DNA of 57,227 nucleotides, filler included, from Bipalium vagum (lineage: Eukaryota): the NCBI GenBank assembly GCA_037834085.1. It is 3 parts of 3 records of this genome, joined end to end, with 100 filler letters (N's around TTAATTAATTAA, not from the genome) between each part and the next. Parts side by side here need not be neighbours in the genome. Positions count along the whole stretch, not along the records: positions 1 to 16,488 come from JBBMKC010108852.1; 2 more parts are not named here. One strand, written 5' to 3'. Positions 2,743-38,345 of the stretch are shown here, piece after piece. A program made the translations under genes and the position numbers. The notes beneath the pieces were generated by a model. The model ran no database searches. It was not told where the DNA came from and saw nothing but the letters and a program-made list of their open reading frames with translations. Each line of letters starts with the position of its first letter. Positions within the stretch are counted from its first letter, which is position 1.

Positions 2743-2983
2743 CCTTTTCGCTGCGCAATTCGTTTTGAGATTTTGTGCCTGCTGTGCGCATTTATTTTGG
2801 TAGCCTTAAATTAGTATTAAACAGCAAAAATAATCGTATAGAGCAGAAAACATGAATAATACATAGTAAACATAGTCGTATTGAGCAGCTAACTAATTTA
2901 AAACTAAGCGCGAAAATATTCGTCGGGAGCGTATGATACACAAGTTTTTTTTGCGAATATATACGTGTGGAGCAGCGAAAGGG
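2743..2983. mobile_element. piggyBac-type MITE (241 bp)
   Basis: TTAA at 2739-2742 and 2984-2987 flank the TIRs CCTTTTCGCTGC and GCAGCGAAAGGG (1 mismatch); no ORF. Confidence 0.85.
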
Positions 2984-2989
2984 TTAATA

Positions 2990-4545: not shown

Positions 4546-4924
4546 GAGGCTTACACAACAAAAAATTTTTATAAAAATGTTTAAATTGGTCAACATTTAT
4601 TACATTTTTAATATTTAAGCTATTGCACGTAATATATATGTAATTTGATGTTTTTGTTCTGTTTGTTTTAATAATTCAAGTTATAAATAAAATGACTAAG
4701 ACACATTTAAATGTCGAAATAAAAAATCGGATATGTGGCCTTTGTTACACAATCTTTGTTACACAAAAAATGCAGAATATTTTGAAGAAACATGATATTC
4801 AAATTCCATTATCCACAATACAAAGAATATTATTGGTAACATTTTGTTATTTGAGGAAAAATTCAAAAAATATTATTAAAAATTAAATAGAATTATTTTA
4901 TTAAAAACCCATTTCACTCTATTT

Positions 4925-5760
4925 TAGAGTTATTTTTTGCAATTCATTCTCGTAAAATCTTCCAAGAATCGTTTTTCCCTTTTTATTTATAATATCATAA
5001 ATTACTGGATGTGTAAAATAAATCTTATACATAGATATTTCTTTTGTCTACTTTGCTGTTTATCTTTTTCAAATTAAATTTTATATTTAAAAATTCTTGC
5101 ATGGTCACCAATATGATATTTTTGTTTTAAGGTTAAAGTATTCATTATTATTATTTAATAACTTTGTGGATCGATAGAAGACCTTGACAGCTTTGCTGGA
5201 TGTTTAGATGCTTCTTCAGGAGTAATTCCAATCATTCTATGAATTATATTAAATTTTTATTAAATTTGATAATACGTTAAACCATTTTCTGTTACCTTGT
5301 TCCGTAAATTTTATAAACATATTATTCTTCAAAGTTTTATTAAATTTTATATTACAACCGCTTTTCTCTTTTCCTCTGTTGAATAAATTTCTATTTTATT
5401 ATCAGCGCAAAAATCTTCAAATGTTTTAAGATTTTTCTTTTTTATTTTTTAAAGGAACAAGAGCATATCTTGTATATAAATCAATTACTGTTAAAATTAT
5501 TTTATATTCCCTTTCTCCTGGTACAAAGATTATATCTGAACACCAAATATCATCTTTATTAGTAACTATGACTTTTAAAAATTGTTTAGGTTTATTAGAT
5601 TCTTTATGAACTTTATTCACGAATTTTGTTTTATTTTATGGTTTTAATTCTTATATGCCTCTAAAAAGTTTTCATTTGCAATATTTTGGCAGATCTTAGT
5701 AGATCTAATCCGAAGGCCTCTTTTCCTTTCAGATTTAATTTTATTATGATTCTTTCTAAT
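4925..5760 (-). mobile_element. Polinton retroviral-like (rve/DDE) integrase (decayed)
   Basis: ORF 5426-5620: DDIWCSDII...YKIILTVIDLYTRYA. Downstream: HRMIGITP, KYHIGDHARIFKYK, GKTILGRFYENELQK. Confidence 0.85.
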
Positions 5761-6049
5761 GTCTCTTTTGATATTAGATTTTGAATATTGTTCATTTCAT
5801 GTATCATTCAACATCAGCAACATATCGATCTTTTAAATCTTTTGAAATATATTTTACATCATTTTTATTGCAGCTTCATCAAATCTATTTATTGAAATGG
5901 ATTTGAGTTTCGCAATTAGATTCATATCTAGTTTTCTAGTTTCATTGTAATGTTCTATTATTTCATTATAGTTTTCAGGCACCTCAACTATAGTAAATCC
6001 CTTATTCCATATTTGAAAATATTTATCCCTTAACTTTAAAATCTAAAAT

Positions 6050-6246
6050 TAATATTGGAGATTATGTAAGAATTTTTAAATATAAAAATAAATTTGAAAA
6101 AAGATACACATCAATTTTGAGAAATGAAATTTTTATTATAAATGAAATTTATTATACTAACCCAGTCGTTTATGGAATTATTGATTTAAAATGGGAAAAA
6201 TATTATGGAACTTTTATATAAATGAGCTTCAAAGAACTAGTTTTAA
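6050..6246 (+). mobile_element. Second Polinton integrase, C-terminal fragment
   Basis: DYVRIFKYKNKFEKRYT...TNPVVYGIIDLKWEKYYGTF..NELQRTSF*, homologous to the C-terminus at about 4925-5120. Confidence 0.8.
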
Positions 6247-6919
6247 AGGATCTTTTTTCAATACCAAACATTAACCAGAAATAATATTTGTGCTTCGAAT
6301 TTTGAAATTCTATCTGATAGAGATTTCTTTCCTCTATATGACTTTAAAAACGATTTGAAAAATATTCTTTCTATAGAGCTTTGCTAATATTAAAAGAATT
6401 CCTAAAGGATTCCCATAAAATTCCGGAAATTAATATTCCTGTTGTAAATTTTTCTAACAATTAATTATTTGTAATCGCAGAAGATCTCTATAATTTCTTT
6501 TAAAAAGTTTGGTAATTTTTCGTGAAATTTTTTATTTTGGAAGCTTTACTTCAGAGAACGTAGTTTGTATTTTCATTTTTATCAGTTATTGTTTTTGTCG
6601 TGGTTTTTGTTGATTTTCCGTTAAATCGTTGTTTATTTTTTCATTTATGTTTCATTTTCAAGATGAAATAGTTTGTAGAAATATTATTTTTCACAAAATT
6701 CACAATAATATTTATTACCATTTTGTAATTTTTTTTTATTTTATGAAAATTTTTAATATTTTCTCTTTTTCATTATTTTAAAATTCTTTTTATTATTATT
6801 ATTTTAGTAGAAGGTTTATTTCTAACTTATTTCAGATGAAAAGACAATGTTGGTATACTTTGAAACTCAGACTTTTAGAAGAAGAAACATTCACTTTTGA
6901 TAATAATAGTTATTATTAT

Positions 6920-6921
6920 TG

Positions 6922-6968
<47 letters not shown>
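6920..6968. repeat. (ATT)n microsatellite
   Basis: Tandem ATT. Similar tracts at about 17219-17245, 19665-19697, 23109-23140 and 24272-24312. Confidence 0.9.
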
Positions 6969-6969
<1 letters not shown>

Positions 6970-7120
6970 ATGTATTTGCCAGATACAAGGATAATAATAA
7001 TCACTAAAGCTGGATTGGAATGTTCCAAAACTGAGTTAACCAATCAACATCGAATATATACACAGTAGCAGTCACTGTTGTCATTATTCTATTTATTTTA
7101 ACATAACGCAAGATCTGATT

Positions 7121-7951
7121 ATGCTTGGCACTTGTCGTTTATTTATATTTAGTTTTTTCGTGTTATTCATTCATGCTGACAGCTTTGCAAAACTGCGCTG
7201 TAGTTCCGATTGTTTTCGTAACCATAGACAATATTTCGTTATGAAAAATGGTTTCTGCTATTTACCCAGATCTAATTCATCTCGAATTCACGAATTGGTT
7301 GCAAAGAAATCTTACAAAGCAAAGTCCGGTAGTTTTGTTTTATTTAGAATTTTATCTGGAAGCGGAATCCATCCGTATTTGTTTTATAAGAATGGTACAG
7401 GAGGCACATGGAGCACAGTCTTGCCAATGAATAGAAACTTTGAGAACTTTAGAAGTGTGCTCTTGGATGAATGGGGTAAGATTAGACCAAAGTCCATGAG
7501 TTTGACTGTGAGAGATTACAGTGATAATGTTGTGGTAAGTTTGGTCTTTGATGTGAAGACGTCTGATAACTTGTGGTCGTGGTTCACCATTGGTAATTTA
7601 AATAATTCATTTCCCTGGAATGTTACCTATTTACAAAAACTAAAGTTTCGCTATTTTAGTATTGAGGGTAGACAAGTACCTGCTGAGACAAAAACAGAAA
7701 ACTCGAGATCTTTTTATATAAATATTTTCAATGTGAATTGCGCTACAGATATTGGAATTTTTTTCATAGGATATTTTAGAGATAAGTGCGATTATTCCAA
7801 TTTATGGCCGAATAAAACCGCTTACATTTTCCCTCAAATTTTGTATGTCAATGTCGATGGTCAAGGAGGACTGTGGATAAAAAATACAAAGGCGGCAAAG
7901 TCAATGGAGATCGTTGGGATGTACGATAGCACCATCACTGTCTACTCTTAG
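7121..7951 (+). CDS. Intronless secreted protein, 276 aa, uncharacterised invertebrate domain
   Basis: Long intact ORF in an AT-rich background; hydrophobic N-terminus (LFIFSFFVLFIHA); Cys pairs; several N-x-S/T sequons; motifs SWF..NL..S.PW, YFSIEG, RSFYIN...C..DIG, PQILY. Confidence 0.85.
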   Translation: MLGTCRLFIFSFFVLFIHADSFAKLRCSSDCFRNHRQYFVMKNGFCYLPRSNSSRIHELVAKKSYKAKSGSFVLFRILSGSGIHPYLFYKNGTGGTWSTVLPMNRNFENFRSVLLDEWGKIRPKSMSLTVRDYSDNVVVSLVFDVKTSDNLWSWFTIGNLNNSFPWNVTYLQKLKFRYFSIEGRQVPAETKTENSRSFYINIFNVNCATDIGIFFIGYFRDKCDYSNLWPNKTAYIFPQILYVNVDGQGGLWIKNTKAAKSMEIVGMYDSTITVYS

Positions 7952-9574
7952 ACCTTTACTGTTCCTCATTACATTTTTCTCTTTCTATGGTAACCATTGT
8001 CAATGTTTCCTCATCTAAAAGATTTGCTTAGTTTCATTTTACATTAACTTTAATTTCTTTATTGATCTATTCTTTATTTTTAGTTGTCCCACTTTATTTT
8101 ATTTTGTTTGGATCATGAATAATATTTAATAATTTATTTCGTTCTTATTTATATTGATTTTATTTATATTTACGATGGCCATGGTTCCTTTTTTTATATA
8201 TTATTTATATATTTTTATTTATTTTTATAAATATTTTCTTCCATATTTCTCAGTGTTACCACTCATTATGAAATGGAAGAGTGACCGAATAAAGATTTAA
8301 CCATTTATTTTTATTAAACATTCATTCCTGGTTGCAAATAACGTATTGAACACATTTTTGACTCTTCGTGCATGATAATTATTTAATGTGTTTACAAAGA
8401 CAATAAAAAAAGTTAATTCATAAAGTATATCTGAGTAGAAAGACCCAAAGTAACGAAAAACAATGAAGGTGAAACTGAGTACATTTTCGCGACACCGATA
8501 ACCGGGAGGAATAGTCTAGGATCCATGCAGATCCAAATTTGATCCTGATAAAAACCTATAGACTTATTTTTAAAAACGAATTATATATACTCTGTGTCAT
8601 TGACTTTCCATATTCTCATTCTATATTGTGCATCAACATTGCTCTAAAACGTTCATAGAGTTCAAAATAATCTTGGAACTCTTTTATTCAGACAAAAATA
8701 ATCTTATTTTTGAGGCTTTACTGAAAAGCAGTTCTCCTTTATATAGAGATTTGGCCTACGACCACCAATATCTATTCTCAGAAACCTTTTTCTTAAAAAA
8801 TAAAATCAATAAGTTTTCTTTAAAAATTTCAGATAATGTTCAAGTGATACTGCCTGCAGTTTTCAGAGCGCTTTGCTTTTCACATGAATATATTATGTTT
8901 ATAATAAATAAATAAATTGTATTCAATTAGCAAAATATTATTTATATCTCTTGAAATTTAATTTCTTCTTGTATTTCTTGTTATAATTCCATTTTTATAA
9001 CCCGGAAAATGATAATTTATAGAATTTCCATCATATACCCTCAACCAGTGTTACCATAACCACGGTCACGACCAAAACAATGGAGAAGAATGTATATCTT
9101 TCTTTGCTGCCTGTTTCTGGAATCCTTCTGCGAAAAATGTGAAATAATTTTATAAAATTATTTCTTGTAAATTTTATTTAGAGAAAAATGTTATTTATTT
9201 ATATCAAATATTTCTCCAATAAAAATTTTAATCATTTTTTTAATATTATTATTTTTTATTAAATATTCATTATTTTTCTATTATTATTCATTAAATTCGT
9301 AATAAAAATATTGTTTATTTACACAAAATGAGTTTTGGATGAAATGAAAATATTCCAGCATAAAAAATTGGACTGGTGAATTTCTGAAAAATGGAAATCG
9401 GAGAAAAGGAACGAAATAATAAAAGTAGTTATATTCATCGGAAAATGTTATCCGTCCATTTCGCTCAATATTCTCAATATTCAAAGGTAAAACTGATACT
9501 TTCTGAAAGGTATTTTCATGATTACTTTATTCGATTTTAAGATATCTCTTTTTTCTCAAGTATAACAGTGGTGA

Positions 9575-10855
9575 TTTAAGGACAAAGAATCGAATGCTTA
9601 TTAGATACTGGACCAACGTTATGAGTAGGAACATTTTGAATTATCAAGCTTAAAGACGTGTACGTAATGAGTAATGATGACAGATTAAGGTTTGCGAACA
9701 ATGGCCAATTGGAAATAGTGGGGAAATGCTCAATTCTAGTGAGGTTAGCAAATGAGTCAAAACTGGTGACCTTCACAATAGTAGAGTATTTAATCGGCGA
9801 AGTAAATCTCCAGAAAGTTATAGGAGTTCGATTAGTTAAAGTAAATTCCAGGTAGATCAAAACTGGTGGAAAGGAAAAGAGAAAATTCATAAATGAAGTC
9901 AAGGAAGATGAGCTATTTAAGAGAATAGCAGAGCTAACTGGAGTGACAAGCAATAGGTGGCTGGTACAGATAATAAAAGATAATGAGGATGTTTTCACGA
10001 CAAACAAGTGCACTCACCTAACGATACACCATATCCAAACAATAGGAGAACTGAATCTTAAGCCGCTTAGACAGCCGATGAACCTATAGGAGAAGATACC
10101 AGAGACAGTCAAGAATCTATACAACAACAATAGGATTTATAAGAAATACAATTAACTTTGGAATACGCCGTTGACTTGCGTATGAAAGAAGGAGGAAAAA
10201 AATACTTATATGTTTGGATTTTTGGAAGTTAAATGCAGTGACAGAAAGGCAAACATTCCCAATGTCAATTGTACATGAGATTTTGGACGCCTTAGGTGGG
10301 GCGAAGTATTTCATTTCCATTGATTTGGATAATGCCTACTATCGAGTAAAATTTAGACATAAAAAACAAGACTGCTTTTTTTACTATGATTAATTACTTG
10401 AAAGTCTTGATATTAAGTTCGAATACAGGAAGGGTTCAATTCATACGAACGCAGATTTGTTATCTAGACAAAGATGTGAAATATGTACTTTCTGCCAATT
10501 AGCGCATGAGGAGGTGAATAGGCGAAAGATGAAAGTCAGGATGTTGGTTGCAATATGCACAGAAAACGTTAAAGATGCAGAAAAGAACGTGATATGGTAT
10601 TTTCAAAGAGGGCTGGCACATGCTGGTACTGAGAAAGGTATATAAAAGGCCATAGTGAAATTACAAGCATCTGCAATGGTTGAGAACATTTATGTCGACA
10701 TCTGCGGTTTGTTAAATGAAATCAGAAGGAAGAAGAAATACATCCTAGGTATATTAGATCAGTAAAATAAATATATCTGTTTAACATCAGTAGAAAGGTA
10801 GGACGAAGAGACGATTAAAGATGTCAAAAAAAAGCTTTTTCAAGTTTGATAGTCC
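9575..10855 (+). mobile_element. Ty3/gypsy LTR retrotransposon pol remnant, internally deleted
   Basis: Protease LLDTG (about 9598); RT ICLDFWKLNAVT..FPM..EILDALGGAKYFISIDLDNAYY; RNase H end EYRKGSIHTNADLLSR; integrase HAGTEK and ENIYVDICG..KYILGILDQ. Order is PR-RT-RH-IN. No LTRs recognised. Confidence 0.85.
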
Positions 10856-10886
10856 CAACATACATAGAGGAAAAAGAACTGAAGGA

Positions 10887-12190
10887 ATCTGGTTGGAAAT
10901 TTATTAATATAGAAAGTATTCAAGAAGATCTTTTCTAATAACAATCATTAGTAGATTCATCTTATGTTAAACTATCTTTTCAATCAAACTATATATTAAA
11001 CATAAAAACAATGATAATAAATGTTTTATATATTCAATTTTAGCTTATTTACATTCCACTATAGATTCTAATGAAAATTTCCATCATTCTGAAAGAATGA
11101 GTAATTATACACCCTATATAAATGAATTAAATTTAAGCAATATTTTTCCTTAATGAATTTCCCATAAAAATAGATGTTAAAAGATTTAATAAACAGAATA
11201 ATATTACTGTTGATATATTTGATATAATTAATGGTCCAACAAAGCTGTCATTAGAAGCTAATAAAAGTAAAACAATACTTCCTTTGTATCAAGAACATTT
11301 TAATTGTAAACCTAATATTGATGACTGGAAGTGTAACTTATTACTATCTAAAAATCATTATTTGTTATGTAGAAACTTATTTACTAATAATACACATAGT
11401 AGTCATTTATGCTTAAAGAAATTAAATTCTTATCGCTTATAATCCTTATTAAACTAACATGTTAGATTATATTAGAGCATAAAGAGACAAAAGCAGCATT
11501 TCACCAAAAGGAATATTGTGAATATGAGAATTAGTATTTTATCAATAAAATAATATCTGTTATATATGCTAATTTTGAAACCTATAATGTTTAGCCAAAT
11601 AAATTTTGATAAATTTAATTGTGTGATTTTTTGTATTAGAATATTTTAAATTAATAATGCATGATTCTGTTTATAATTGTTTACAAAAGAAATTATCTGG
11701 AAAATATAAAAATCATTATGGAGATTATGATTCTTTATTTATTGAATTTATTTTTAGATTAGAATAAAACTAGTAAAGATATAGAAAATTAGCAATCAAA
11801 TTAAATAGGAAATGAATTATTTCAATTTAAAGATGAGAAAACAAATGAGACATTTAAACAAGCTAATTTCAATAAATCTATGCCACGTGCTTATGAAACA
11901 ATAATGAATAAAAAATTTATATTTGAAAAGAAAATGAAAAGTATTGGTAAGAAGAATATTAAAACCGATATAAATGATTATGCAAATGTTTTAAATGGAA
12001 GTATAGTAAATAAAGTAAATCATGGTACAAAATCAGATAAACGTAATATTTTAATATGTTCACAAGAAAATTCTTTGAATAATAAATTATTATTCAATTA
12101 ATTGTTGTTTGATAATAAAAGAATAAATGAAGATATTGCAATAATTACTTATTCTCGTTGACATAAAATTGATTGCAATAAATGTAAAGA
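10887..12190 (+). mobile_element. Polinton pPolB, N-terminus joined by deletion to C-terminus (decayed)
   Basis: GWKFINIESI, SSYVKL, ILNIKNNDNKCFIYSILAYLH, CNLLLSKNHYLL, VIYANFE; then KDEK, KMKSIGKK, FDNKRINED (pPolB C-terminal DxKR motif). Confidence 0.8.
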
Positions 12191-12589
12191 AGAGATGTAT
12201 TGATTGGATGAAATTAATAAACCTCATCTAGGTTAAACTAACTAGCTTTTTATTGAAAAAAATAATTATAAATCTTATCATTTAACCATATTAACAATCA
12301 TAGAAATATTTCTTAAAATAATTTTTAAAATATAAATAATATTTTTAAAATGCGTGAAATTGATTTTTTTAAATTATACAAAATTTTATATTCTGAAAAA
12401 AATATATAACAAGAAATTTCATACAAGAAATTATTATCATTTCTTAGAAATCGAATACTTTTTCCTTTGAATGAAGTGAATTAAACAAAGCCAAAATTAC
12501 ATTAATAATAATTTTTTAATTTAAAAAATGGTGAATGAAATTTCAATATCAATATAAACGAAGCTTTAAATAACAAATTCACTTATCAA

Positions 12590-13035
12590 ATAAAACTAAA
12601 GAATGTTATAAATGTTTTCAAATAAAACAATTTACAAATTTTTATTCAAAAATAAATAATTGTAATTATTGTCATCTAATCCATATTAAAATTCATAGAA
12701 ATATTCCAGAAAATAAAATATAATGATTATCATAGAAATAGAAAACAAGAAAATCCAATTTGAGAATTTAACAAAATTTATATACTATCTTAAATAGAGC
12801 TTTGAAAGAAAAAAAAAGAGTTTAAATATTCAGAAAAAATATTTCGATGTAGTTTTGATTTTCTATATGAATCGTTTCAATTTTAATTTTATGATGGAAT
12901 GACTTGGGAAATTTATGGAAAATACTGTCATAAAGATCATGCTTTACCAATGTCAATTTTTTATTTAAATAAAAATATGTATTTAAACTTTTTAATAATT
13001 GAAAAAATTTAAGACCTTTAACTGTTCAAAGTAGA
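12590..13035 (+). pseudogene. Zinc-ribbon plus HNH (endonuclease VII-like) nuclease of giant-virus/phage type, Polinton cargo
   Basis: KTKECYKCFQIKQFTNFYSKINNCNYC (C4 ribbon), NDYHRNRKQENP, IFRCSFDFLYESFQF*FYDGMTWEIYGKYCHKDHALPMS, NN*KNLRPL. This fits the recalled pattern GCs...MtWeNyG..WhiDHi.P...nw.NLqPL. Confidence 0.75.
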
Positions 13036-13084
13036 TTATTGGCAATATATGACTAAAAAATATATATTTCAAGAAATTAAAGCA

Positions 13085-13660
13085 AAATATGTAAAGTTAA
13101 AACTGCATCAATAGTACATAACTTTTCTGGTTAATCTTTTAAATCAAAACAAAATATAGATTATAAATTTTGAACTTCTGATAAGCTTAATTGAGAATTA
13201 TTATTAAAGGATTTAAATGCTTTTACATAATTAGAAATAAGTTCTATTATTTTTACCTTCTTCAAATTTTATAGGATTTAAAGGATACTATTATCTATTA
13301 ACTAAAACTCTTAGACGTTTTATTTTATTTTGAATAAACAAACTATTGTTTTTATTAAAATTAAATTCTTATTATTTAAAAGCAATAAATATATTAATTG
13401 GTTTGTTTGATACATTATATAATTGTAATGTTTGTGTAGTTCCTTCTGTATAATTTCTTTCTTCACAATGTCTAGAATTAAATTTACATTTATAGATTTT
13501 CCATCATTTATTCTTGATTTAATTGTAATTCTGGAATAAATAGTATTAAATTTATTAATTTTATAGTTGCATTTCTTTAGGGTGCACAAAATACTTCTTT
13601 ATGAATATTAATTCTTCAAGTAAATGTGAATTTCTCCATTATTGTTTTTATCAATCATTA
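13085..13660 (-). mobile_element. Polinton double-jelly-roll major capsid protein, C-terminal fragment (decayed)
   Basis: IKLINLILFIPELQLN, VSNKPINIFIAFK, NNSLFIQNKIKRLRVLVNR**YPLNPIKF, QNL*SIFCFDLKD*PEKL. These match recalled Polinton/adintovirus capsid motifs (kP..i.iaF, lN...YP, ypifvfDl..Q.e). Confidence 0.7.
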
Positions 13661-13689
13661 CAAAAATTTTTTTTTACAATGTTGATGAA

Positions 13690-14857
13690 CCAACTTTCTA
13701 TTTTCAATTGTTTCTATTTCAGTTAAATTTAATTTTAAGCTCGTATTAGCAAATAAAAGTACTGGTTCTATGACAGTTTCTCTATGACTGGTTCTCTAAA
13801 GTTTTCCCATATTCAAAGTATTATTCATTAATTTATATGTTATTCCAAATTTTTCTTTATTTTTCTTTGCTTTTGTTCTCATAGAAATATGTAACTCAAT
13901 ACAAGATTTTAACCAGTTAGATTTTTTATATTCTATTTTTCTATGAATTTTAATAAGTTTTATTCCATGATCTAAATACCAATTTAACATTCATCCTTCA
14001 ATAATACAATTATATTTATTTTTCTGATTCATAATTAATTTCTCATTTGGTTTATAATTGCCATATCTTTTATTTTTCATTCAATTTTGATAATCTGAAA
14101 ATTTGTTTTCATTTGAAAAACATTTTTTAGGACATTAAGGATAAATTTTGTTTTATCTTTAATTTCTTTTGGATATTCTAAATCTACTTCATAAACAAAA
14201 GTTAGATTATTTTCACCAGGTAATGTTCTTTCATAGTTTAAAATAATTGGACATTGTTCTTCATCAAAATTAATTAAATCAGCTTCTGTAATAATTCAGT
14301 TTATTTCTCCTGTTGGTAATTCATCTATCATGGCAGAATGATATAAACTATTTGCATCATAACATAATACAGTTTTCTTTTAAATGATCTAAATTTTTAA
14401 TTTCATTATTTTTTCTCATTTTCAATTTGTATAATATTTCATTTAGTTCTTCTTTATCAAGAATTTTTCTAATAGGATTATAATTAGGATTTACTTTTTT
14501 GTTATTACAAACAACTTTTCTATTTCCTAAAACAGAACTTACTCCACCTCGAATTATTTTCTCAAAAGGATAATAGTTTATCATAAGATTCTTCTTTATA
14601 ATATTTTCATTTTACTTTTCTATATTTTAATTCTGCTAACCAAGTTAATCCTGGTAATGGATAACAATAACAAGGGTCAATTCCATAAGATTTTAAGCAA
14701 TCATCTCTAAACTTTTCAAATCTTTTTTTTCATGAACCCAATTTATATGTTGTGTTAAATATCTTTGTCCAGAAAAAGGTTTATTACAAATATCACATAA
14801 ATATTTTGGAATTATTTAATCGGAAATATCAAAAGCTTTTTTCGGAGATGCTTCCAT
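13690..14857 (-). mobile_element. Polinton pPolB: N-terminal C2H2 finger joined by deletion to the polymerase core (decayed)
   Basis: ATG 14857 MEASPKKAF, YLCDICNKPFSGQRYLTQHINWVH, then FEKFRDDCLKSYGIDP..LPGLTW, IRGGVS, motif A YDANSLY..AM..ELPTG, EVDLEYP, motif B YKLMNN. Confidence 0.9.
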
Positions 14858-14899
14858 GTTTTTATAATAAAAATATTTTTTTCTATTTTTTTTAGTTTT

Positions 14900-15410
14900 T
14901 TAATTATCAAAAATTTCTTTCATTCTTATTTCAAGCGTTTTTTCTTGTTTTTTTATTTTTAATCAATTATCTTCTCCAAAATGGAATTTCCAAAAATATT
15001 CACCTGAAATAAAGTAAACATTATTATTTGATTTATAAAACATTGGTTTCTTATCATAAACACATGCATAGATAATTTTATAATTTTTAAATTCATTTGA
15101 ATTTGCACAATTACTTAATTTATTCATAATAATTTCTTTATTATGTTGATTACATGTTGCAGAATTTGTTTTTATTTGAAATAAAACTTTTTTTTAATGA
15201 CAACAGAAATATTAATATTTCATTGATGTTCTTTCAAAATTAAAATTAAGCATGTTCTTCGAAGAATAATCAGGTTTTATGTGTAATTTGTATAATAATT
15301 CTGTTTTAATTGAAAATCTTCAAGGATATATTTAGACAGAAAATAATTGTTTGACATTTGTTCTGGTTTTTTTAAAATATCTTTCTTGCAATTTCTAGGA
15401 ATAATTCCAT
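14900..15410 (-). pseudogene. Restriction-endonuclease-like PD-(D/E)xK nuclease (Eco47II/Sau96I-like pattern), Polinton cargo
   Basis: Open 76-aa stretch 15193-14966: KKVLFQIKTNSATCNQHNKEIIMNKLSNCANSNEFKNYKIIYACVYDKKPMFYKSNNNVYFISGEYFWKFHFGEDN. Upstream, frameshifted: ITHKT*LFFEE. Downstream: *LKIKKQEKTLEIRMKEIFDN*. The 5' end is approximate. Confidence 0.55.
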
Positions 15411-15419
15411 TTTTTTAAA

Positions 15420-15808
15420 GAAAAAATTTAATTTTTTTATTTTTTCAATAATACTTTTTCTCGTACTTTTTACTTGTACTTTTTCTAGTACTTTTTAGTC
15501 ATATTTTTTAGTATTGAAAAAATTTCGTTGAAAAGGAAATTTTTCAAAGGCTGAAGAATTGAACAATTTTTGAAAATTTTAAGTAGTGAATTTTGATCAA
15601 AAAGTGAAAAAATTGACTTAAAAAGTGGTGGAAAAAGTGGCTTTTATGGGGGTGTTTTTTTTAAGTTGAGAAATAAACAGTTAAAAATCTACTAAAATGA
15701 GTAATTTTTCGCTGAAAAACAAAAAAGAAGTTTTTTCAATAGTGAAAAAATGAGATGAAAACACACTCCTTGCCTCTGGGGTCCATCTCGCGTAATAGAG
15801 CCACTACT
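15420..15808 (-). repeat. Polinton terminus / terminal inverted repeat arm
   Basis: Minus strand begins AGTAGTGGCTCTATTACGCG at 15808, followed by a GC-richer tip and about 350 bp of non-coding A/T-tract sequence, directly upstream of the nuclease and pPolB genes. No partner TIR in the window. Confidence 0.6.
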
Positions 15809-16039
15809 AATAAATAAGAGTATGCTTGCATCTTTTCTTTATATTCTTTTAAAGTTCATTTTCAATTCTTTTTTAACTGATTAATTAAGTTTTTCAATTA
15901 CATTTCCCTCTTTTATCTTTTTAATATTTTCCTTACATTGATTAATTATTATTTTTGCTTGTTCTAACTCTTTATTAGTTATGTTATCTTCTTATGCTTT
16001 TAATTGAAATATATATAAGTTTATTATTGATGCTTCTAT

Positions 16040-16255
16040 TTGTTTTACAATTTTTTTTTATAGTTTTTTTCGTTTAGAAGTAAGTCTTCTACTAATATTT
16101 ATACTTCCTATCATAGCATCACCAGTAACATTTAAAAATTTATTTTCTGATTAAGTTTGAATAAGAGTTATTTCTTCTTTTATTTTATTTTTTTCATTAT
16201 AATCATTATAAAAATAGGGGGTTTTAAAATATATAAAATTATCACTCATTTTTAT
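16040..16255 (-). mobile_element. Possible Polinton fibre-like gene fragment
   Basis: ENKFLNVTGDAMIGSINI resembles the y/fl...GDtM.G.lnm repeat of viral fibre-like proteins; short match only. Confidence 0.4.
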
Positions 16256-16488
16256 AATTCTAATTTTTCTAGAAGAACATATTTTAACTCATTTAAAATG
16301 TGAACGAAGCTCTCATGAAGCGTATCTTCGGCACTGACCCCTCCGGTGTGTTTTACTTTATTATCCTCAAACATCTTTTTATTAAACAACTGATATAAAA
16401 CATAAAGTCAATTGTCCACAATATTAATATATTGTATATTAATATTTATATTATATATTTATATTATATATTTATATTATATAATTAT

Positions 16489-16588
16489 NNNNNNNNNNNN
16501 NNNNNNNNNNNNNNNNNNNNNNNNNNNNNNNNTTAATTAATTAANNNNNNNNNNNNNNNNNNNNNNNNNNNNNNNNNNNNNNNNNNNN
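16489..16588. other. Artificial assembly spacer
   Basis: 44 N + TTAATTAATTAA (stops in all six frames) + 44 N = 100 bp. Confidence 0.97.
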
Positions 16589-16663: not shown

Positions 16664-16936
16664 TAGATAAGATTTACTGATCAGGTAATATAAAAAAATA
16701 TATTTTGAATCAAGAATTATCGAATTCTGATTGAAAAAGTCCAAAAATTGAAGAATAATTTTTGTTTAATAATTTTTAATATCTTCTGATAAATATAAAT
16801 AATATAGAAAAATAAAAAATAATTAGTAAATATTTTTAAAAATTTGTATTAATTTATTATAATCACTATTGAGAAACATGGATTAATTGATATTTCCTAT
16901 TTATTTAAAATTATTTTAATTCTCGTTTTTGTGAAG

Positions 16937-19662
16937 ATGACAATTGACAGACAGTTGATAAAATTTGAAACCAGTGTTATTGGAGAAAGTCTTGTACAAT
17001 CCATAAATTTGAAAAACTTGGGATCAAAGGGAACTTTTTGTTATATATTGAAAAAGTCACAAGTAATAATATTTGATAATAAGAACTACTTCATTTTATC
17101 GATTTTGTATTTTAGTTTAACATTGGTTCTGATTTAAAGCCTACAGATGAATACAATGGAGAACTAAATGAAGGCACGTTTTACTTTATTATTAATTAAA
17201 ACAAGATTTTCAAAAAATTTATTATTATTATTATTATTATTATTAAATTTCAATTAATTATATATTTACTTTTCATCTAATAGACCAAATATGGTCAGTC
17301 GAAGAAAATCCATTTGTGACAATGAATTAATTCACAAAATTACACGTGATTTAAAATTTTTAATTAAATAACTTCAAATTAAATTGTGTCAATAAAGATA
17401 TCGAGGCTTTGTGTTTCAAAATTTTGGGAATAATATAGATTAAAATATTTTCGCCTTTTGATCTAATTTTTTCCCCAATGTATCCAGAATTTAAAAAAAC
17501 ATTTGGATATTTAATGTATACTTGTAATGATAAATACCATTTACAGTTATATCTCGTTACTATGTAACCTCGCTACTATGCCACTCTCTCTATTTTATCG
17601 CTATTTTTTTATCAAGGAGAAGGTGGAAACTTCATCGCGAGTGACGGTTAATTAGACAATTTTAAGGAACTCCAAGGCAGAGCGAAGCTGAAGTGTTAGA
17701 TTCACAATCTCTTCTTAAGTGGCAACAATATGTTGGCAACAGACAACGTTTTCACTATGGACGAGACTGGACTCTTATGACAACAACAACCATGGCTTTC
17801 AAGGGAGAGCAGTGTACAGGAAGAAAGAAAAGTTTTGGCAAATATGATTGGCAGCGAGAAGTTTTTTCTTCTGGTAATTGGCGCTTCCAAAAGACCTCGT
17901 GCCTCCAAGAATAAGGAGTACAAGGCGAACGCAAAGACATGAATGACAGTGAAGCTTTTCGAGGAGATATTGCTTGCATAGGGCGGACGATTCAGCCAGC
18001 AGGGACGCAGAGTGCTGGTCTGTCTTGATAAATTTGTTGACCACCAATTTGACGACTTTATAACTGTCGAGGAGGAAGTCGTTTTAGTTCGAGGAAGCCC
18101 AGAGCTCATGTAACAGAAAAGCTGGAAGCCCGATGTGATGCAAGCGTGCGATTAGTTATATAACGAGATGCACGTAATCTGCCGAAAGAAAATTCTTGAG
18201 AGCTTTGGGTTGATAAGTAACTTGAGAAAATAAATCAGTTCTTACAAACCATCGCAACTATTTCTCTCTTACTCAGTCACGACAGTCGGCATAGTAACGA
18301 GATATAACTGTACTTTAAAAGAAAAGACTCTTTTTCTTTTTATGATTTGACCAAATTCTAAATTGATTATTTATTCACTACTGATCTGACTTTGAGCTCA
18401 ACCACAAATTACATGTCCAGTTTTCATATAAAAATTTAATTAAAATATTTTTTATATTGGAGAAATAGAAAGCAAAAAATCTCGTGATAATAAAAACTTT
18501 TTTTTACAAAGTAATTATTTATTTAATAAAGATGAAAAAATAAATTATATTTGGCAAGATTGTTTGAAAATAATTATTTATTTCACCGGTAATTTAAAAC
18601 TAATTAATGATAAATCAAATTTGAGGCACGAAGTAGCGATTATGTTACAGTTTGTTTTCCATAAAAATAGTAATCTAACCACAATTTTCTCAAAAGAGAA
18701 TATAAAATTAAGAAGTTCTAAGATTTTGAGGAATTATTTATTTTAAGGATTTTTTATGAAGTATGAATTTTGAAACATTGAAAAGTAAGATGTGACGAAA
18801 AGAATAAATTTCCCTTATTTCATTCATACCTATTTGATATTTGTATTATGCAACTCTGTTCCATCAATTCTAAGACTATAACACTAATAGTTACTTTTCT
18901 TGAATTATTATGAAATTGCGATAATATCTGTTATTATTATAGTTCGTAATTTCACGAGTATCATTTTTTTAGACTTTAGTTTCGATAGATCTATAACTAC
19001 AAGCTTGGACAATATAAAATTGTGGATTGAGCCCAATGGAAAACAGGAAATAATGGTAAAATGGAATCCATTGATTGCTGGCGATTATTCAGAAGATTTC
19101 TTTATCAGGTTTGAAGATGAGGATAACAAAGGAGTAAATATAATATTTTTGGAATTTTTATTATTGATATTTTTACATCTTTCTTATATTTCATAAAATC
19201 TGAATAAAATTTCAATATTAACTAATCCAAATTCTTTGTTGAAATGCCTTAAGTCATTGGTTTGTTTTAATATATTAACTTTCCTAATAAAATATAAATT
19301 ATATTTAATTTTAAGTTTTATTTTATATCTATTGTGAATGTTATACGGCTCATTTTAAAGTCATATGTATTGATTGCTAAAACCTTTTATTTTCTTCAAG
19401 TTGAAGAACTCCAACCTCTCTTGATAAAATTGAAAGAACACTATCAAAAGTCGTTGGAAAGTGACCCATTTACATTTTTTCGTCAAACTGATTTAATAAA
19501 AATCTCACAAATGATTCAATTGGCTTTTAGATTATTCTTTATATACTTAGATTATACTTTAGATTTTGTATCATACTTATCGAAATATTTAATTTAAAAA
19601 ATATAAAATCTGAACTAAAAAATCACTTTAGATTTAATACAATAAAAATATCTTAAGTTTTT

Positions 19663-19698
<36 letters not shown>

Positions 19699-22600
19699 TT
19701 TTTTTGATTAAATTGAAAAATTAGAACAAATAATTAATAATCAATAAGTTATAGAATCTTATTCGTTTTTTAAATTCTATTTCATTTCTACTTTACTTTT
19801 TTTCCTTTTTATTTCATGTGCACTAAATTTACTAGTTTCAACATTTTTTATTTTCTATATTTTTCTTAATGGTTATTAAAAAACAGTGCATAATTGTTAA
19901 TATCTGACTCCAATATCTTACAATTGCATTCGCTAATTTAACCCTTATTTATTAATAAATTAATTATATTAATAATTATAAATTTTATAATATATAATTA
20001 TAAATTTATTATTAATATAAATATAACATATAAAATAATAAGACTTTAAACCAAAATGTATTCAATTGAATCTCAATGTTGTAACAATCACAATATCTCA
20101 AAATATCTCAAGTACAATGTAAAATATCTGAATGTCTCTGAGATATCACAATTTACTTGATTTCATAGTTCAAAAATAACAGAAAAAATAAAATGAAAAT
20201 ATAATAGTTCTGTAAAAAAAATCTTTTTTTTGTTATTCAATTTGTTATTCAAAAGTTTACTTTACCTCTTAAATTAACTTTCTTTAAGATCAATAAAATA
20301 ACCTCAAATCATTTCTTAAGCTTATCGCAATTATGAATAGTGAGAGATTGATAAAACCACAAAGTCTTCCTTATTACAATAATTTGATCATGTTTTTGTG
20401 ATAAAGTAAATAGTTGGTATTTATTATAGTGAACAATAACCTTATTTTTCAAATAAACGCTTTCTAGCAATCATTTCTGTAAGTAAAAAAATTATTTATT
20501 ATAATAGAATTTTGAAGCACGATTCGATCTTTTTAATTCAGATGGTTTTCAGTCAATTTTAATGTTCTAATCAATTATCTTCAAATGACTTCACATTCAT
20601 ATATTTTTAATATTTATCTTCATTATTATTTGATGAAAAATTATTTCTTTTTATTTAACATTTTTTACAAATTTTAAAATTTTCTATTTTTAAAAAAAAT
20701 ATTCTAATTAAGGAAGGCATTGATCATTGATTGATTTCTGATTTCTACACTTCATGAATTAATTTCAATTTTTCGATCACTAATGATTCATAATTTTTCT
20801 TTTTTCCGTATTATCAATTTTCCCAATATTATACAAAATTCATTTATATATTGTTTTGTATATCTGTTTGAATTTTCACAATATATTTCTTTAGGATTTT
20901 AAAATGAAAATCGCTTACTGAGTTATTTTAATCTTTAGTTAAATATATATTTTTGACGATTATATTTATTTCAGTTCGACTTAAGAATTCTAGGAAAAGC
21001 AATTGATGTCCCAGTTTATATAGAAGACCAGACGATTTCAATGAATATATGTATGTTTGACCGTCTATATCAGGACACGATCATTTTTCATAGTAGAGCG
21101 TCGACAGCTCTTCAGTTGCAATTTCATATTCCTTCGGAAATGAAAGATTATTTAGAGATTTTGCCTAATTCAGGATTTATCCAGGTAAACTCTTAGATTA
21201 TCTCAATTAAAGAATTAATCAATTTATTTATTTAAGAAACATCAATTTTACAAGATTTTATTAAAAAAGTTAAAAGAAAATAAAAATAAAGATATATTAA
21301 ATGTAAATAAAAATTTTGAAATATCTTTTTATTTTTTTAACTTAGCTGAAAAAATTAAATTAAAAAAAATATTATTTTCGATTTTATAATTAAGCCAGCT
21401 TCATTTAATATTTTATTTATTTTTCATTATTAACTTGTTTTCATATTTATATTATCTTCCAAATTAAACTTTCTTTTTAATGAAGAAAACATTTATTATT
21501 ATATAAAAATACCTTAATTTTAATTTAATAATAAATTAATATAAATTAAAATCGATTTTTTGGTGACTGCCATAAGAATGACTTGTAATTGAAAAAATTA
21601 ACGTTATAAATTAAAATTTTGAAAATACATCTGATTTAATGGGAAATTTGATTGGTGTTTAATATAAAAAATGATGGTTGCAACTATTAATGTTTTTTTA
21701 TTTGTTCACATTATCTGGTTATTATTACTAAAGAAGTCATTGCGAAGTTATTAATTCAATAGAACAAAACTAGTTTTTTCTAAATTAGTATTTATGAAAT
21801 TATTCTGATTTAATCAATGATACAGGAGAAAAGTGAATGGTGCTCAAAAAAATTTCTTCAAAAAATTGATTAACAAAAATATGGCATAGATTATTATTGT
21901 ATTATGTTGTTGTTTATTAGGTTGTGTCATATGAATTGGGCGATTTCAAAAAATTAATATTTAAAAATGTTTTACAATTTTTTATTTTAATTTTCTACAA
22001 TAAACTTTGGCAAGGAAATTTTTATAAATCTTCCTCAAACAGGTTTTAGCAATTTTATTCTTTTGTTCATCACGAGCAATAAGAACAGCGACTTTGTAGG
22101 ACTTGAATCCTCTATTCTGCTTCACTTTGTGGATGTATAATTTAGATGTTTTATATTACTCTGCAACATCACGTACTGAAAGCGAAGGAATTTTCTTAAA
22201 CGCACTGATGACATTGTATCAATTGGACCTACTTTTTTATCTGAACCTGAATAGTAAATCTTCTTATAGCTTGAAATAGCTTTTTGAACAGTTGATTATG
22301 TAACTCCAACATTTTTAGTGATCGTTGAATATGAAGAAGCTGTATTTTGATTGTATTTGGACAATTTATTTTTCATATTTCAATTTTTTGTCAATCTTGG
22401 ACATTAATATTTATTGATCTACAAAATCAATAAATTATTTAGATAATATGACACAAAAAACTTAATTTATAAAAATAATGGTATTAGAGCAATCTATTCA
22501 AAAGTTTTCTGATATGTTTACTGATATGTTTTCATATTAATTTTAATGTCCATTTTTAGGCAGGTCAGAACTTCAAAGCACAAATAAAATTACTTATCAG

Positions 22601-25600
22601 ACCTACTTTATATGAAGAAAATTGTCCATATTTTGACACAGAGTCTGGTATTTTGGATGTTCCTATTTCAGCGTCAATTGCAAGTCAAGTCAAAACCATC
22701 AATTTTAACGTACAGGCAGTTTTAACAGTTACAGATTTAGAAATAAGTGTAATAAATAATGATTCTGGAATACTTGACTTCGGATATTGCACTATAAAGC
22801 ATACGACAATGAAATCGATTCAGGTGACAAATAAATCAATATTGCCCCAAGAATTTGGATTCATTGATTGTCCTGATGTTTGTTTCATAACATATTTTAT
22901 TATTTATACATTCCGATTTTAGTATATAGAGATCCAGCCGAACTTTGGTTATGGTATTATTTTACCAAAAGAAACATTAGAATTGCAGATTTTTTTTAGT
23001 CCACTAAAGGCCGAACATTTTGAATTCCAGTTATTTTGCCAAACTTTAATTAACAGGTAAGAATTACAAAGGTATGGAATTTATAGGTAGACATTCGTTA
23101 AACATAAGATAATAATAATAATAATAATAATATTATTAATAATGAATTATTGTCGATTTTTACAGAATTAAACAAATATTTTTACAGAATAGGTACAGTT
23201 ATGAAATATACATTTTATTATATATTATTTTATTATTGGTTTCTACAATACAATTTAATTTCTCCATATTTTAAAGAATTTCGCGTTTTACTTTGAAATG
23301 CGCATATTTTTATGTCAATTGAAAAATGATGATATTGGAATATTTTCTCAGTCATTCACTCATTTCATCAAGAGTCTGTGTGGATGTTTTTCAATTTATT
23401 GCCCACCTTGTTACTATTCACAACTTACTTAGTTGACGACTCTAAATGAAATATTCCCAAGTTGAAAAGAGAAAATCATCATCTGCGATTCTTTATATCA
23501 TGAATGCCTGGATAAATTCACTTATTTGATTTGTTTGGTTTGGTTGTTATTTATTTGGTATTTTATAAATTTAATATGCTCATCAAATTTCAAAACACAA
23601 TATTTTATCATAGACAACAAAAACCTTTAATAATTTAAAATATTATTGTTTTATCTATTATGAGTTCTCAAAAATCTGGATCACATTGATGGAATCTAAT
23701 ATTTGTAGAATATTTCTATTAAATTTATAATTTAATAATAATAATAATACTAACAGAATAAATCTTTTCAAAATTCATTTTGTTGAATATATTTTTATTT
23801 TATAATAGAGTCTTCTCTGTATCGTGTTGTGGAATTGGAGTCAAACCACCTTTGGAGATAAGTAGCCATATTATTGACTTTCCTTATACGGCTATCGATG
23901 ATAAGTCTAAGGTGAATATTTTCATTCACAATAACCACTTGAGCAAAAACATATATACTCACGATCCCCCAAGAATCGGAAATGGTTCTGTAGCACCTAT
24001 TGGGCCGAAAACTTTCCAATTTGTTGTCCCTGAAAATAATTCAATTTATATTCATCCCAGATTCGGAACAATATTTCCTGGAAAAGTATAGAATTTATGC
24101 ATATTATAAAATATTATAATTTCTTCGAAAATATTATGTTTAATTAATATTATAATTTAATGTTTATTTAAAATTTTATAAGAAGATAGGTTCTTCCCAA
24201 TTTTAAATTGAAAAATGGTTTATTTTATCATTATTATTTTATTATTTTTTAAAAATTATATAGTTTCACTTTTATTATTATTATTATTATTATTAATATT
24301 ATTATTATTATTAAATTATTAGATTTTCCTGTTATGAATCACATAATATAACTATCTTCGTTAAGTTTGAATTATTTCTTTGCCCAATAGGTTAAAAAAT
24401 CAAAAATTATACAATAAAAATATTTTTATTCAGAAACAAAAGATATCTATTTTTTTTGAACCTGGATTCTTGGAAGACTTAATTAAAACAGAGGCATCAA
24501 ATATATTAAACAATAAATTAGAAAAAAAGGCAGAAGAAGAATGGAAAGAAAAGATACGTATTTTAAAAATGCAAAAAGAGGAAGAAAAAAAAGATGTAAT
24601 TATTTTTTTAATATAATTTTTCAATCATTCCTTTACAGAAAAATGACAGCAAATTGAAGAGATCAGCTAAAAAGCAAAGCCGTCCTCATAGTAATAAAAG
24701 TGTCAATCAAAACACCGTTGAAGAACTTGAAGCAGCTGGACCAGATTCATTTGAGAAAGTAGAGCCCGAAAAAGTTGTGACAAATTCAGATGACTACATG
24801 AAAGGAAAACTTTCATTAATGAAGAAATTTAATTTTCAGTTTGATCTCTTCAAGATTAAATGTCTGATAGCCGAAGGAAACATAGGAGATACAGATAAAG
24901 AAATTAGTTACAAGTACATCGCTATTTTTAAAAGTTTATTTTCTAAATAATGTCTCTAGTCCTTGCAATACCTTATTTTTGGAACTACATTGTCCTTCAG
25001 TTAAGCCAGATTTATTAATTTTATCTAACTGCAAAGGATCTGTAATTGATTTTGGAGAAAATATCATAGGTAGAAGAGTCAAAAGAATTGTTTCGATCCA
25101 AAATATTTCTTCAGAAAGTTTTCAAGTAAAGCTTTTGAATTAATAATTTTTTTTCTTTATAATAATCATGAGCCCGTCTTGGAAATTAATAATCCCACGA
25201 GCGACATTTTTATAAATATCAAGCAGTTTATTTAGGAATAATCATATTTAGAAAAAGTAAAATTATTAACGAGAGTAATGAAATGCATATGTTAAATATA
25301 ATATTGGGTTGATTCATAAGTTCGTGCGTTGTTAATGAAAATATTATGCATGTGTTAGAGATAAGAATTTTGCAATCAAACAAATTTTATTCAGAAAAAA
25401 TAAAGACAATTATGTTCAACTGTCTTAATCCAACGATGGGGAAGTTGTTTGATGCCATTCTGGTACCATACTTTATCTTTGGAAAGAAAAAATTCACGAA
25501 ATCCATTTTCAACCTGTTCTATATTTTCAAACTGTAGTCCTCTATTATTCTATTTTACGATACTCGCGCCGTATCGCAAAAGAGCATTAATCTGTTGCAG

Positions 25601-38245: not shown

Positions 38246-38345
38246 NNNNNNNNNNNNNNNNNNNNNNNNNNNNNNNNNNNNNNNNNNNNTTAATTAATTA
38301 ANNNNNNNNNNNNNNNNNNNNNNNNNNNNNNNNNNNNNNNNNNNN
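38246..38345. other. Artificial assembly spacer
   Basis: 44 N + TTAATTAATTAA + 44 N, identical to 16489-16588. Confidence 0.97.

What the first reader, a model, noticed from the sequence alone, without database searches (positions are those of the whole stretch)
14900..15410. Animal Polinton with a restriction-enzyme-like nuclease as its first gene
Seen: between the AGTAGT terminus (15808) and the pPolB ATG (14857) lies a same-strand decayed ORF that ends about 40 bp before pPolB and is missing from the ORF track. It reads HKT(*=G?)LFFEE ... KKVLFQIKTNSATCN ... NKL ... YKIIYACV ... VYFISGEYFWKFHFGED. Knowledge: the pattern G.ffE helix, (E/Q)xK, .NT.N, KL, then i..isG..f...ifG recalls Eco47II/Sau96I-family type II restriction endonucleases and their giant-virus homologues. 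Such enzymes are not part of the standard animal Polinton gene set (pPolB, INT, ATPase, protease, capsids). Inference: this lineage may use a site-specific nuclease against competing elements or host DNA. No methyltransferase is visible here, and the PD aspartate is lost or obscured by decay.
Basis: partly seen in the sequence, partly recalled or inferred. Interest (0 to 1): 0.8.

Follow-up and report, generated by a model that had tools for sequence, protein, structure and literature searches.

The report
Dead restriction-enzyme gene in animal Polinton
A broken gene related to bacterial restriction enzymes sits between the probable end and the DNA polymerase of a decayed virus-like transposon in what looks like an animal genome, hinting that such elements can carry DNA-cutting weapons, though only one dead copy was seen.

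Summary
The peptides are there as described (14900-15410, minus strand), in a pseudogene with about four frameshifts and two stops. Its 76-aa open piece has one real relative among 1.84 billion proteins: P0002, 203 aa, E 4e-6. P0002 passes the Pfam RE_Eco47II cut-off, keeps the helix-E, D and E-x-K catalytic pattern, and models as a PD-(D/E)xK fold whose longest match is EcoO109I. The restriction-enzyme ancestry is therefore well supported, but through one intermediate; the relic alone does not score on a bacterial Eco47II profile. The Polinton setting is likely but weaker. The AGTAGT end, a 42-bp spacer and ordered pPolB motifs fit. However, no library confirmed pPolB, there is no second terminal repeat, and more Polinton-like debris lies outside the supposed end. 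No methyltransferase was found, although 54 of 57 prokaryote-labelled relatives have one. The catalytic state cannot be called. Nucleases and suggested restriction-modification systems are already reported for Polinton-like viruses; I found no report of a stand-alone type II restriction-family gene in an animal Polinton. Verdict: new variant of a known kind, one dead copy, interest 0.5.

The parts
15751..15808 (-). Probable Polinton end: AGTAGT hexamer (15808-15803) opening a short GC-rich stretch
   Evidence: GC 0.50 against about 0.2 on both sides. (AGT)2 is the commonest Maverick end motif (PMC8097293). No partner end in the window.
15411..15750 (-). Subterminal, TIR-like stretch with short tandem repeats at 15451-15513
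   Evidence: No stop-to-stop ORF of 70 aa or more.
14900..15410 (-). Pseudogene of an Eco47II/EcoO109I-clade PD-(D/E)xK nuclease. Candidate ATGs at 15410 and 15357. Frameshifts near 15303, 15248, 15220 and 15194; in-frame stops at 15272-15270 and 14965-14963.
   Evidence: Frameshift-aware alignment to P0002 residues 30-173 over 15357-14927; codon checks. The breaks between 15270 and 15194 depend on alignment settings.
15249..15287 (-). Remnant of the first core helix (ITHKT-stop-LFFEEHA), aligned to P0002 54-66
   Evidence: Tied 4th of 114,372 six-frame positions in an ungapped scan (motif chosen after seeing the alignment).
14966..15193 (-). 76-aa open piece P0001 with the QIK strand, the N-x-x-T-C-N motif, and the C-terminal strands and helix
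   Evidence: phmmer to P0002, E 4e-6, 35% over 74 aa. Pfam RE_EcoO109I E 0.083 over residues 2-75, below cut-off.
14730..14857 (-). ATG-started ORF remnant with a C2H2 zinc finger, taken as the pPolB 5' end (unverified)
   Evidence: Pfam zf-C2H2 E 0.0012, below cut-off.
13790..14730 (-). Decayed pPolB polymerase-domain relic; it appears to lack the N-terminal, exonuclease and motif-C parts
   Evidence: Recalled Polinton pPolB motifs, each found once in the window and in the expected order: 14687, 14566, 14361 (motif A), 13834 and 13811 (motif B). A paralogous relic lies at 1873-2213. No library hit.
15809..16488 (-). Flank outside the proposed end: a decayed ORF with a GD-x-M-x-G motif (16123), recalled from Polinton accessory proteins; ends at a scaffold gap
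   Evidence: Only a weak unknown-function PHROG hit, E 0.021. N-run at 16489-16588.

Best explanation
This is the dead copy of an accessory gene of a Polinton (Maverick), lying in the cargo slot between the terminal repeat and pPolB. The gene encoded a small (about 170-200 aa) PD-(D/E)xK DNase descended from Eco47II/EcoO109I-type restriction enzymes, probably from the viral branch of that clade. Most likely it worked like a restriction enzyme: a homodimer cutting a short palindrome in DNA that lacked protection (rival Polintons, co-infecting DNA viruses, or host DNA during a virion-making phase). The element would have been spared by a methyltransferase in the part now missing, or by scarcity of sites. 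Shown: sequence, homology chain, fold of the intact relative, position. Inferred: membership of the element, activity, target and self-protection.
For: Homology chain: P0001 to P0002, E 4e-6, 0 of 5000 shuffles; P0002 to RE_Eco47II, 28.1 bits above the 25.9 cut-off; profile-profile match 93%, E 3e-7, 103 columns, reaching into the part covered by P0001. DNA upstream of P0001 aligns to P0002 45-84 better than 398 of 400 controls. The P0002 model (pLDDT 77) matches EcoO109I over most of its length (Foldseek probability 0.99, TMq 0.52; Z 8.2, rmsd 5.5, 153 aligned). K92, T97 and N99 are invariant across 40 rows including P0001 (partly circular, because the rows were selected on this motif). One of the closest Atlas clusters is Eco47II-like and 72% viral, commonest Nucleocytoviricota. 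The gene is on the same strand as the pPolB motifs, 42 bp upstream; accessory regions flank the core in vertebrate Mavericks, and cargo lies next to the TIR in nematode Mavericks.
Against: P0001 alone does not score on the prokaryotic Eco47II profile (no hit at E<=5; 1% in hhalign), and the X read-through gains nothing on it (73 and 87 of 200 controls score as well). The N-half test is significant only at a low frameshift penalty, and not at all as a free local alignment (44 of 100). The relic has Q where P0002 has E90, and no acidic residue aligns with D79 in the best path. No fold hit reaches E<=0.001, and Z 8 ties with unrelated PD-(D/E)xK nucleases. No methyltransferase in the window, against 54 of 57 relatives. 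No site depletion is detectable; the element's own end contains a GGWCC (15780). A 5-bp cutter would cut this host every 2-3 kb (16 GGNCC in 40 kb). Single copy, no second TIR, pPolB not confirmed by any library.
Confidence: 0.38

Rival explanations
1. It is a free-standing homing-type endonuclease of the Polinton. Built on the same restriction fold, it cuts related elements that lack it, so that it and the neighbouring pPolB or end module spread by recombinational repair.
For: Position between terminus and replicase, as for GIY-YIG genes beside the mavirus and Gezel-14T end modules (PMC11296320). Endonucleases near replicases are proposed to drive replicase exchange. No methyltransferase is needed, and none is seen. 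A long target would spare the host. PD-(D/E)xK homing enzymes exist (I-Bth0305I is in the fold list).
Against: The protein is short, with no extra DNA-binding domain, and keeps the family's N-x-x-T-x-N motif after the catalytic lysine, which I recall as part of short-site recognition. The best full-length fold match is a type IIP enzyme.
Confidence: 0.2
2. It is Polinton cargo but was not an active nuclease there: a captured viral gene that decayed as a passenger, or a catalytically dead DNA-binding protein kept near the origin or terminus.
For: Q in place of E90, and no acidic residue at the D79 position in the best path. No methyltransferase. An active frequent cutter would be toxic in an animal nucleus (inference). 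Mavericks carry variable cargo.
Against: The D79 region lies between frameshifts, and its alignment is unstable (vs 83), so loss may be post-insertion decay. The helix E and the catalytic K are kept. Q-x-K variants are active in Mrr-type nucleases (recalled).
Confidence: 0.18
3. The gene is real but is not this Polinton's own first gene. It is a piece of another endogenous virus or another element that lies next to pPolB by nesting or rearrangement in a repeat graveyard.
For: At least three pPolB-like and two integrase-like relics, in mixed orientations, lie within 1.7-16.5 kb. The pPolB relic appears to have a large internal deletion. The hexamer occurs 18 times. There is no partner TIR, so no target-site duplication can be checked. 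Polinton-like sequence continues outside the end.
Against: Same strand, a 42-bp spacer, similar GC (0.20 vs 0.225), a sharp GC-rich end and subterminal repeats form the usual Maverick layout. I recognised no other giant-virus gene nearby (by eye; the Pfam scan of flanking frames found none).
Confidence: 0.19
4. The resemblance is a chance match of AT-rich, N/K/I/Y-biased sequence.
For: The direct family hits are weak: RE_EcoO109I E 0.083, below a Hemopexin hit at E 0.015. Atlas scores are under 0.9.
Confidence: 0.05

Closest known systems
Eco47II restriction endonuclease family (Pfam PF09553) and EcoO109I (PF14511; PDB 1WTD/1WTE)
   Same: PD-(D/E)xK core with the helix G-x-x-x-(E/Q), D, (E/Q)-x-K and N-T-x-N motifs; size; fold of the intact relative P0002.
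   Different: About 20% identity to prokaryote-labelled members; lies in a eukaryotic genome; no adjacent C5 methyltransferase (54 of 57 relatives have one); broken; Q-x-K.
Giant-virus (Nucleocytoviricota) Eco47II-like proteins and chlorovirus restriction-modification systems
   Same: A restriction-family nuclease in a eukaryotic DNA virus. An Atlas cluster of 136 members is 68% PF09553 and 72% viral. Chlorovirus and giant-virus RM papers were seen as search listings only; virion-packaged enzymes degrading host DNA is recalled.
   Different: Here the carrier is a small integrating element in an animal-like host, and no methyltransferase is seen.
Nucleases and proposed RM systems of Polinton-like viruses and virophages
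   Same: Nucleases are the fifth commonest class in 1055 polisuvirus genomes, with RM suggested (10.64898/2026.10.13.758929, section read). MTases lie next to endonucleases in PLVs (10.64898/2026.06.19.733378, passages). A GIY-YIG gene lies between TIR and end module (PMC11296320, passages).
   Different: Where those passages name families they are GIY-YIG or HNH, mostly in protist viruses; none names a type II restriction family.
HNH and VSR nuclease domains inside nematode, oomycete and mollusc Polinton pPolB2
   Same: A nuclease tied to pPolB in animal Polintons; VSR is also PD-(D/E)xK (10.1101/2023.08.22.554363, passages).
   Different: Those are insertions within the polymerase; this is a separate upstream gene of a different family.
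Maverick cargo genes (nematode WASP proteases, KRMA kinases)
   Same: A variable gene in the slot next to the TIR (10.1101/2022.07.12.499685, passages).
   Different: That cargo can carry introns and is thought to be taken from the host; this gene shows no introns in the alignment and is of prokaryote/virus type.

Membership tests
Eco47II/EcoO109I-type type II restriction endonucleases | Profile match above the family cut-off | tested here: inconclusive
   Met for P0002 (28.1 > 25.9 bits). The relic's open piece stays below cut-off (RE_EcoO109I 13.1 < 22.5) and misses the home-built profile; it lacks the N-terminal half of the core.
Eco47II/EcoO109I-type type II restriction endonucleases | PD-(D/E)xK fold | tested here: met
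   Met for the proxy P0002, modelled with a 40-row family alignment; the relic itself was not folded.
Eco47II/EcoO109I-type type II restriction endonucleases | Catalytic helix E/Q, D and (E/D)xK residues | tested here: inconclusive
   All present in P0002 (E63, D79, E90, K92). The relic keeps the helix E and the K, has Q at the E position, and the D position falls between frameshifts.
Eco47II/EcoO109I-type type II restriction endonucleases | Linked cognate DNA methyltransferase | tested here: not met
   No C5-methyltransferase trace in the window by tblastn (E<=0.05) or HMM (E<=1) built from the relatives' partners. The element is truncated, so loss is possible; adenine methyltransferases were not searched with a dedicated profile.
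Eco47II/EcoO109I-type type II restriction endonucleases | Cleavage at a short palindrome; avoidance of that site in the carrier | tested here: inconclusive
   GGNCC 1 observed vs 0.6 expected in 13640-15808, and 3 vs 4.2 in 1700-16480; no power. Cleavage is not testable here.
Polinton/Maverick | 5'-(AGT)2 end motif | tested here: met
   15808-15803; motif per PMC8097293; the hexamer occurs 18 times in the window.
Polinton/Maverick | [quoted passage not shown] | tested here: not met
   No second end in the window; usual for fossils (2,166 elements lacked discernible TIRs).
Polinton/Maverick | Protein-primed PolB | tested here: inconclusive
   Five recalled motifs in the expected order; no hit in Pfam, PHROGs, NCBIfam, PDB, phages, plasmids or the protein search.
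Polinton/Maverick | rve integrase, ATPase, protease and capsids within the same element | tested here: inconclusive
   An rve relic at 4901-5701 (E 5e-4, below cut-off) lies 8 kb away and may belong to another copy; no ATPase, protease or capsid hit in the frames scanned.
Homing endonuclease genes | Long asymmetric target in a nuclease-free allele of the same locus | not testable with these tools
   Needs other copies of the element and a cleavage assay.

The most novel reading that the evidence does not exclude
A lineage of animal Polintons carries a working type II restriction endonuclease, with a methyltransferase or another means of self-protection, and uses it inside animal nuclei against rival elements, DNA viruses or host chromosomes: a bacterial-style restriction system running in an animal germ line.
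Probability: 0.2. Interest if true: 0.82.

Novelty: new variant of a known kind. Interest (0 to 1): 0.5.

Why it matters
Type II restriction enzymes are known from prokaryotes and giant viruses of protists. One in an animal Polinton would extend restriction-type conflict to integrating viruses of animals, give a named and assayable enzyme for the open question of what polisuvirus nucleases do, and point to gene flow between giant viruses and animal Mavericks. The P0001/P0002 branch is also a very divergent arm of the Eco47II clade that may have a new specificity. As it stands it is one dead copy.

Tried and rejected
Word-index protein searches: P0001 with longer lengths, 0 of 8 candidates; P0002, only itself among 148; pPolB frame, 0 of 1884. 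P0003 was dropped as a 21-residue match in a 4259-aa protein. PDB sequence searches for P0002 and the family profile found nothing meaningful. tblastn of P0002 in phages and plasmids gave one E 0.8 hit and none. PHROGs, PADLOC and NCBIfam gave no relevant hit for P0001 or P0002. The single-sequence fold of P0002 was unusable (pLDDT 39). A GTDB scan with the two-sequence alignment confirmed 0 of 563 stretches. The viral fold library gave no match at E<=0.001. The Hemopexin hit was rejected as a 20-residue match. One search used a wrong frame and is disregarded. None of 6 window ORFs is in the protein collection by exact look-up, which may mean the host is not represented there, so missing close homologues are weak evidence. 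The tree joins P0001 with P0002 (100/96) on very long branches; their grouping with L040 is unsupported (81/93), and I draw no donor from it. Searches of supplement text for restriction-family terms gave no occurrence in six papers; those files may be partial. bioRxiv supplements, including the orthologue table behind, could not be seen and might list this family.

Full report
1. Observation. On the minus strand, AGTAGT at 15808-15803 opens a 58-bp stretch of 50% GC in DNA of about 20% GC. About 340 bp without an ORF of 70 aa follow, with short tandem repeats. Past the stop at 14965-14963 that frame ends at 14900, 42 bp before the ATG at 14857.

2. What the ORF is. phmmer of P0001 over 1.84 billion representatives gave 2 hits at E<=0.001. 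One is P0002 (203 aa, E 4e-6, 35% over 74 residues); the other is a 21-residue match, which I dropped. The P0001-P0002 score of 138 is reached by 0 of 5000 shuffles. P0002 is an unnamed singleton on a 2.9-kb contig and passes the Pfam RE_Eco47II cut-off. P0001 itself gives a sub-threshold RE_EcoO109I hit over residues 2-75 (E 0.083), ranked below a 20-residue Hemopexin hit. The Atlas lists restriction-enzyme clusters for both proteins: under 0.9 for P0001, a lead only, and 0.92-0.94 for P0002, including an Eco47II cluster that is 72% viral, commonest Nucleocytoviricota (recognition 2289, just under the tool's 2300 mark).

3. Family alignment and fold. These held 124 motif frames; 58 passed a full-length and motif filter limited to the 80 loci with flanks, and 37 were non-redundant. 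With L040 added, 38 of 38 are RE_Eco47II. A profile of the 37 hits P0002 residues 50-112 (E 1.9e-7) but not P0001. hhalign gives 93% for P0002 plus P0001 against the family and 1% for P0001 alone. The assignment of the relic is therefore transitive. Folded with this alignment, P0002 reaches pLDDT 77. The top fold matches are nearly all PD-(D/E)xK nucleases, and EcoO109I gives the longest alignment (probability 0.99, TMq 0.52, E 0.015; Z 8.0-8.2 with 153-166 residues aligned at rmsd 5.5-8.1). It is tied in Z with shorter matches such as Cdn1, and no match reaches E<=0.001.

4. The broken half. A frameshift-aware alignment with X at the breaks places P0002 30-173 collinearly on 15357-14927, with four frameshifts and two stops. 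Evidence for the upstream half alone is modest. As a free local alignment it is not significant (44 of 100 shuffles and 36 of 96 other stretches score as well). Anchored, it is significant at frameshift penalty 8 (6, 2 and 0 of 150) but not at 12 or 15. The end-to-end alignment of P0002 45-84 is matched by only 1 of 200 shuffles and 1 of 200 other stretches, yet adds nothing on the prokaryotic profile. P0002 has E63, D79, E90 and K92. The relic keeps the helix E and the K and has Q at the E90 position. The D79 position lies between frameshifts where two alignments disagree, so activity cannot be called.

5. Is it a Polinton gene? Downstream come a C2H2 finger (E 0.0012) and five motifs that I recall from Polinton pPolB, each found once in the window and in order (14687, 14566, 14361, 13834, 13811). 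I wrote these patterns after seeing the translation, and no library confirmed pPolB. The terminal-protein, exonuclease and motif-C parts appear to be missing. (AGT)2 is the commonest Maverick end, and accessory ORFs flank the core (PMC8097293, passages), so the layout fits. Against it: the hexamer occurs 18 times; there is no partner end; a decayed Polinton-like ORF continues outside the end; and further pPolB-like and integrase-like relics lie at 1.8-2.2, 3.4-4.6, 4.9-5.6, 6.0-6.2 and 10.8-12.1 kb, none with a second nuclease copy. I put membership of the element at about 0.75-0.8; 'first gene' is plausible but unproven.

6. Host. The animal label rests on intron-split CFAP74 exons (Pfam E 2.5e-23; CFAP74 is not animal-specific, recalled) and a PDZ exon matching KIAA1095, which I recall as PDZRN3 (E 1.6e-4). 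These lie beyond scaffold gaps at 16489-16588 and 38246-38345. An AT-rich invertebrate is likely, and the link to the relic depends on the scaffolding.

7. Mechanism. 54 of 57 loci from the GTDB scan carry a C5-methyltransferase motif within 2 kb; the window has no trace of one. L040, the GTDB member nearest the relic (22%), also has one; its gene style suggests a giant-virus fragment binned with a bacterium (my inference). Site counts have no power, and a GGNCC cutter would cut host DNA every 2-3 kb. An active enzyme would thus need protection or tight timing. My best reading is a restriction-like conflict nuclease carried as cargo (0.38). Rivals are a homing-type gene beside the replicase (0.20), chance adjacency (0.19), inactive cargo (0.18) and artefact (0.05).

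8. Comparison with what is known. Nucleases are the fifth commonest class in 1055 polisuvirus genomes, and RM systems were suggested (10.64898/2026.10.13.758929, first part of one section; 10.64898/2026.06.19.733378, passages; PMC12220804, passages). GIY-YIG genes sit by TIRs and PolB in virophages and PLVs (PMC11296320, passages). Animal Polinton pPolBs carry HNH or VSR inserts (10.1101/2023.08.22.554363, passages). Coral Polintons have rare endonuclease genes of unnamed family (10.1101/2023.10.06.561300, passage). Eco47II is a PD-(D/E)xK family listed as bacterial (PMC3424549, passages). The literature searches (listings, with passages read for the papers cited) and supplement searches in six papers showed no report of an Eco47II- or EcoO109I-type gene in an animal Polinton. 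Subscription papers, Repbase reports and bioRxiv supplements were not seen.

9. Verdict. The gene works like, and descends from, a type II restriction endonuclease. It is not filed as a restriction-modification system, because the partner is missing and the catalytic residues are unresolved. It probably belonged to a Polinton. This is a new variant of a known kind, surprising for an animal element but resting on one dead copy: interest 0.5, and about 0.8 if intact, linked, active copies are found.

Noticed in passing
window 10830-12100 (+): A second pPolB-like relic facing the first. It has N-terminal-domain and C-terminal (FKDE at 11826) motifs but apparently not the middle, roughly complementary to the parts kept in the minus-strand relic. 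Motif identities are recalled.
   Followed up: partly
window 1800-2213 (-) and 3457-4620 (+): Another pair of pPolB-like relics: a polymerase part on the minus strand, and an N-terminal part with an Endonuclease-VII-like DH motif (4341) on the plus strand; homologous to the 13.8-14.1 kb and 10.9-11.3 kb relics.
   Followed up: partly
window 4910-5630 (-) and 5997-6221 (+): Two Polinton-type integrase relics: an rve core (Pfam E 5e-4) and two C-terminal GD-x-x-RI motifs; their ends form inverted repeat I4.
   Followed up: partly
window 7040-7951 (+) and 287-776 (-): An intact 303-aa frame with a hydrophobic, signal-peptide-like start and no Pfam family, and a decayed inverted paralogue (repeat I3); probably a host secreted-protein family.
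   Followed up: no
window 16853-31488 (+): Intron-split CFAP74 gene (Pfam Ig-CFAP74 domains) with mariner-like insertions at about 25.6-26.3 kb.
   Followed up: partly
window 35813-36867 (+), 39393-40170 (+), 53722-54012 (+), 9640-10700 (+): A nearly intact mariner-like transposase, two Tc1-like relics and a gypsy-like pol relic, recognised by eye.
   Followed up: no
window 16489-16588 and 38246-38345: Scaffold gaps written as N44-TTAATTAATTAA-N44; they explain repeats D1, I1, I6 and I7.
   Followed up: yes
L040 (CAIYBL010000031.1) 1-1747: A divergent Eco47II-like nuclease convergent with a C5 methyltransferase on a 3.3-kb contig binned as an actinobacterium; it looks like a giant-virus restriction-modification pair (inference).
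   Followed up: partly
L020/L021 (CADAOO010000004.1): Two tandem Eco47II-family nuclease genes in a Methanobrevibacter genome.
   Followed up: no
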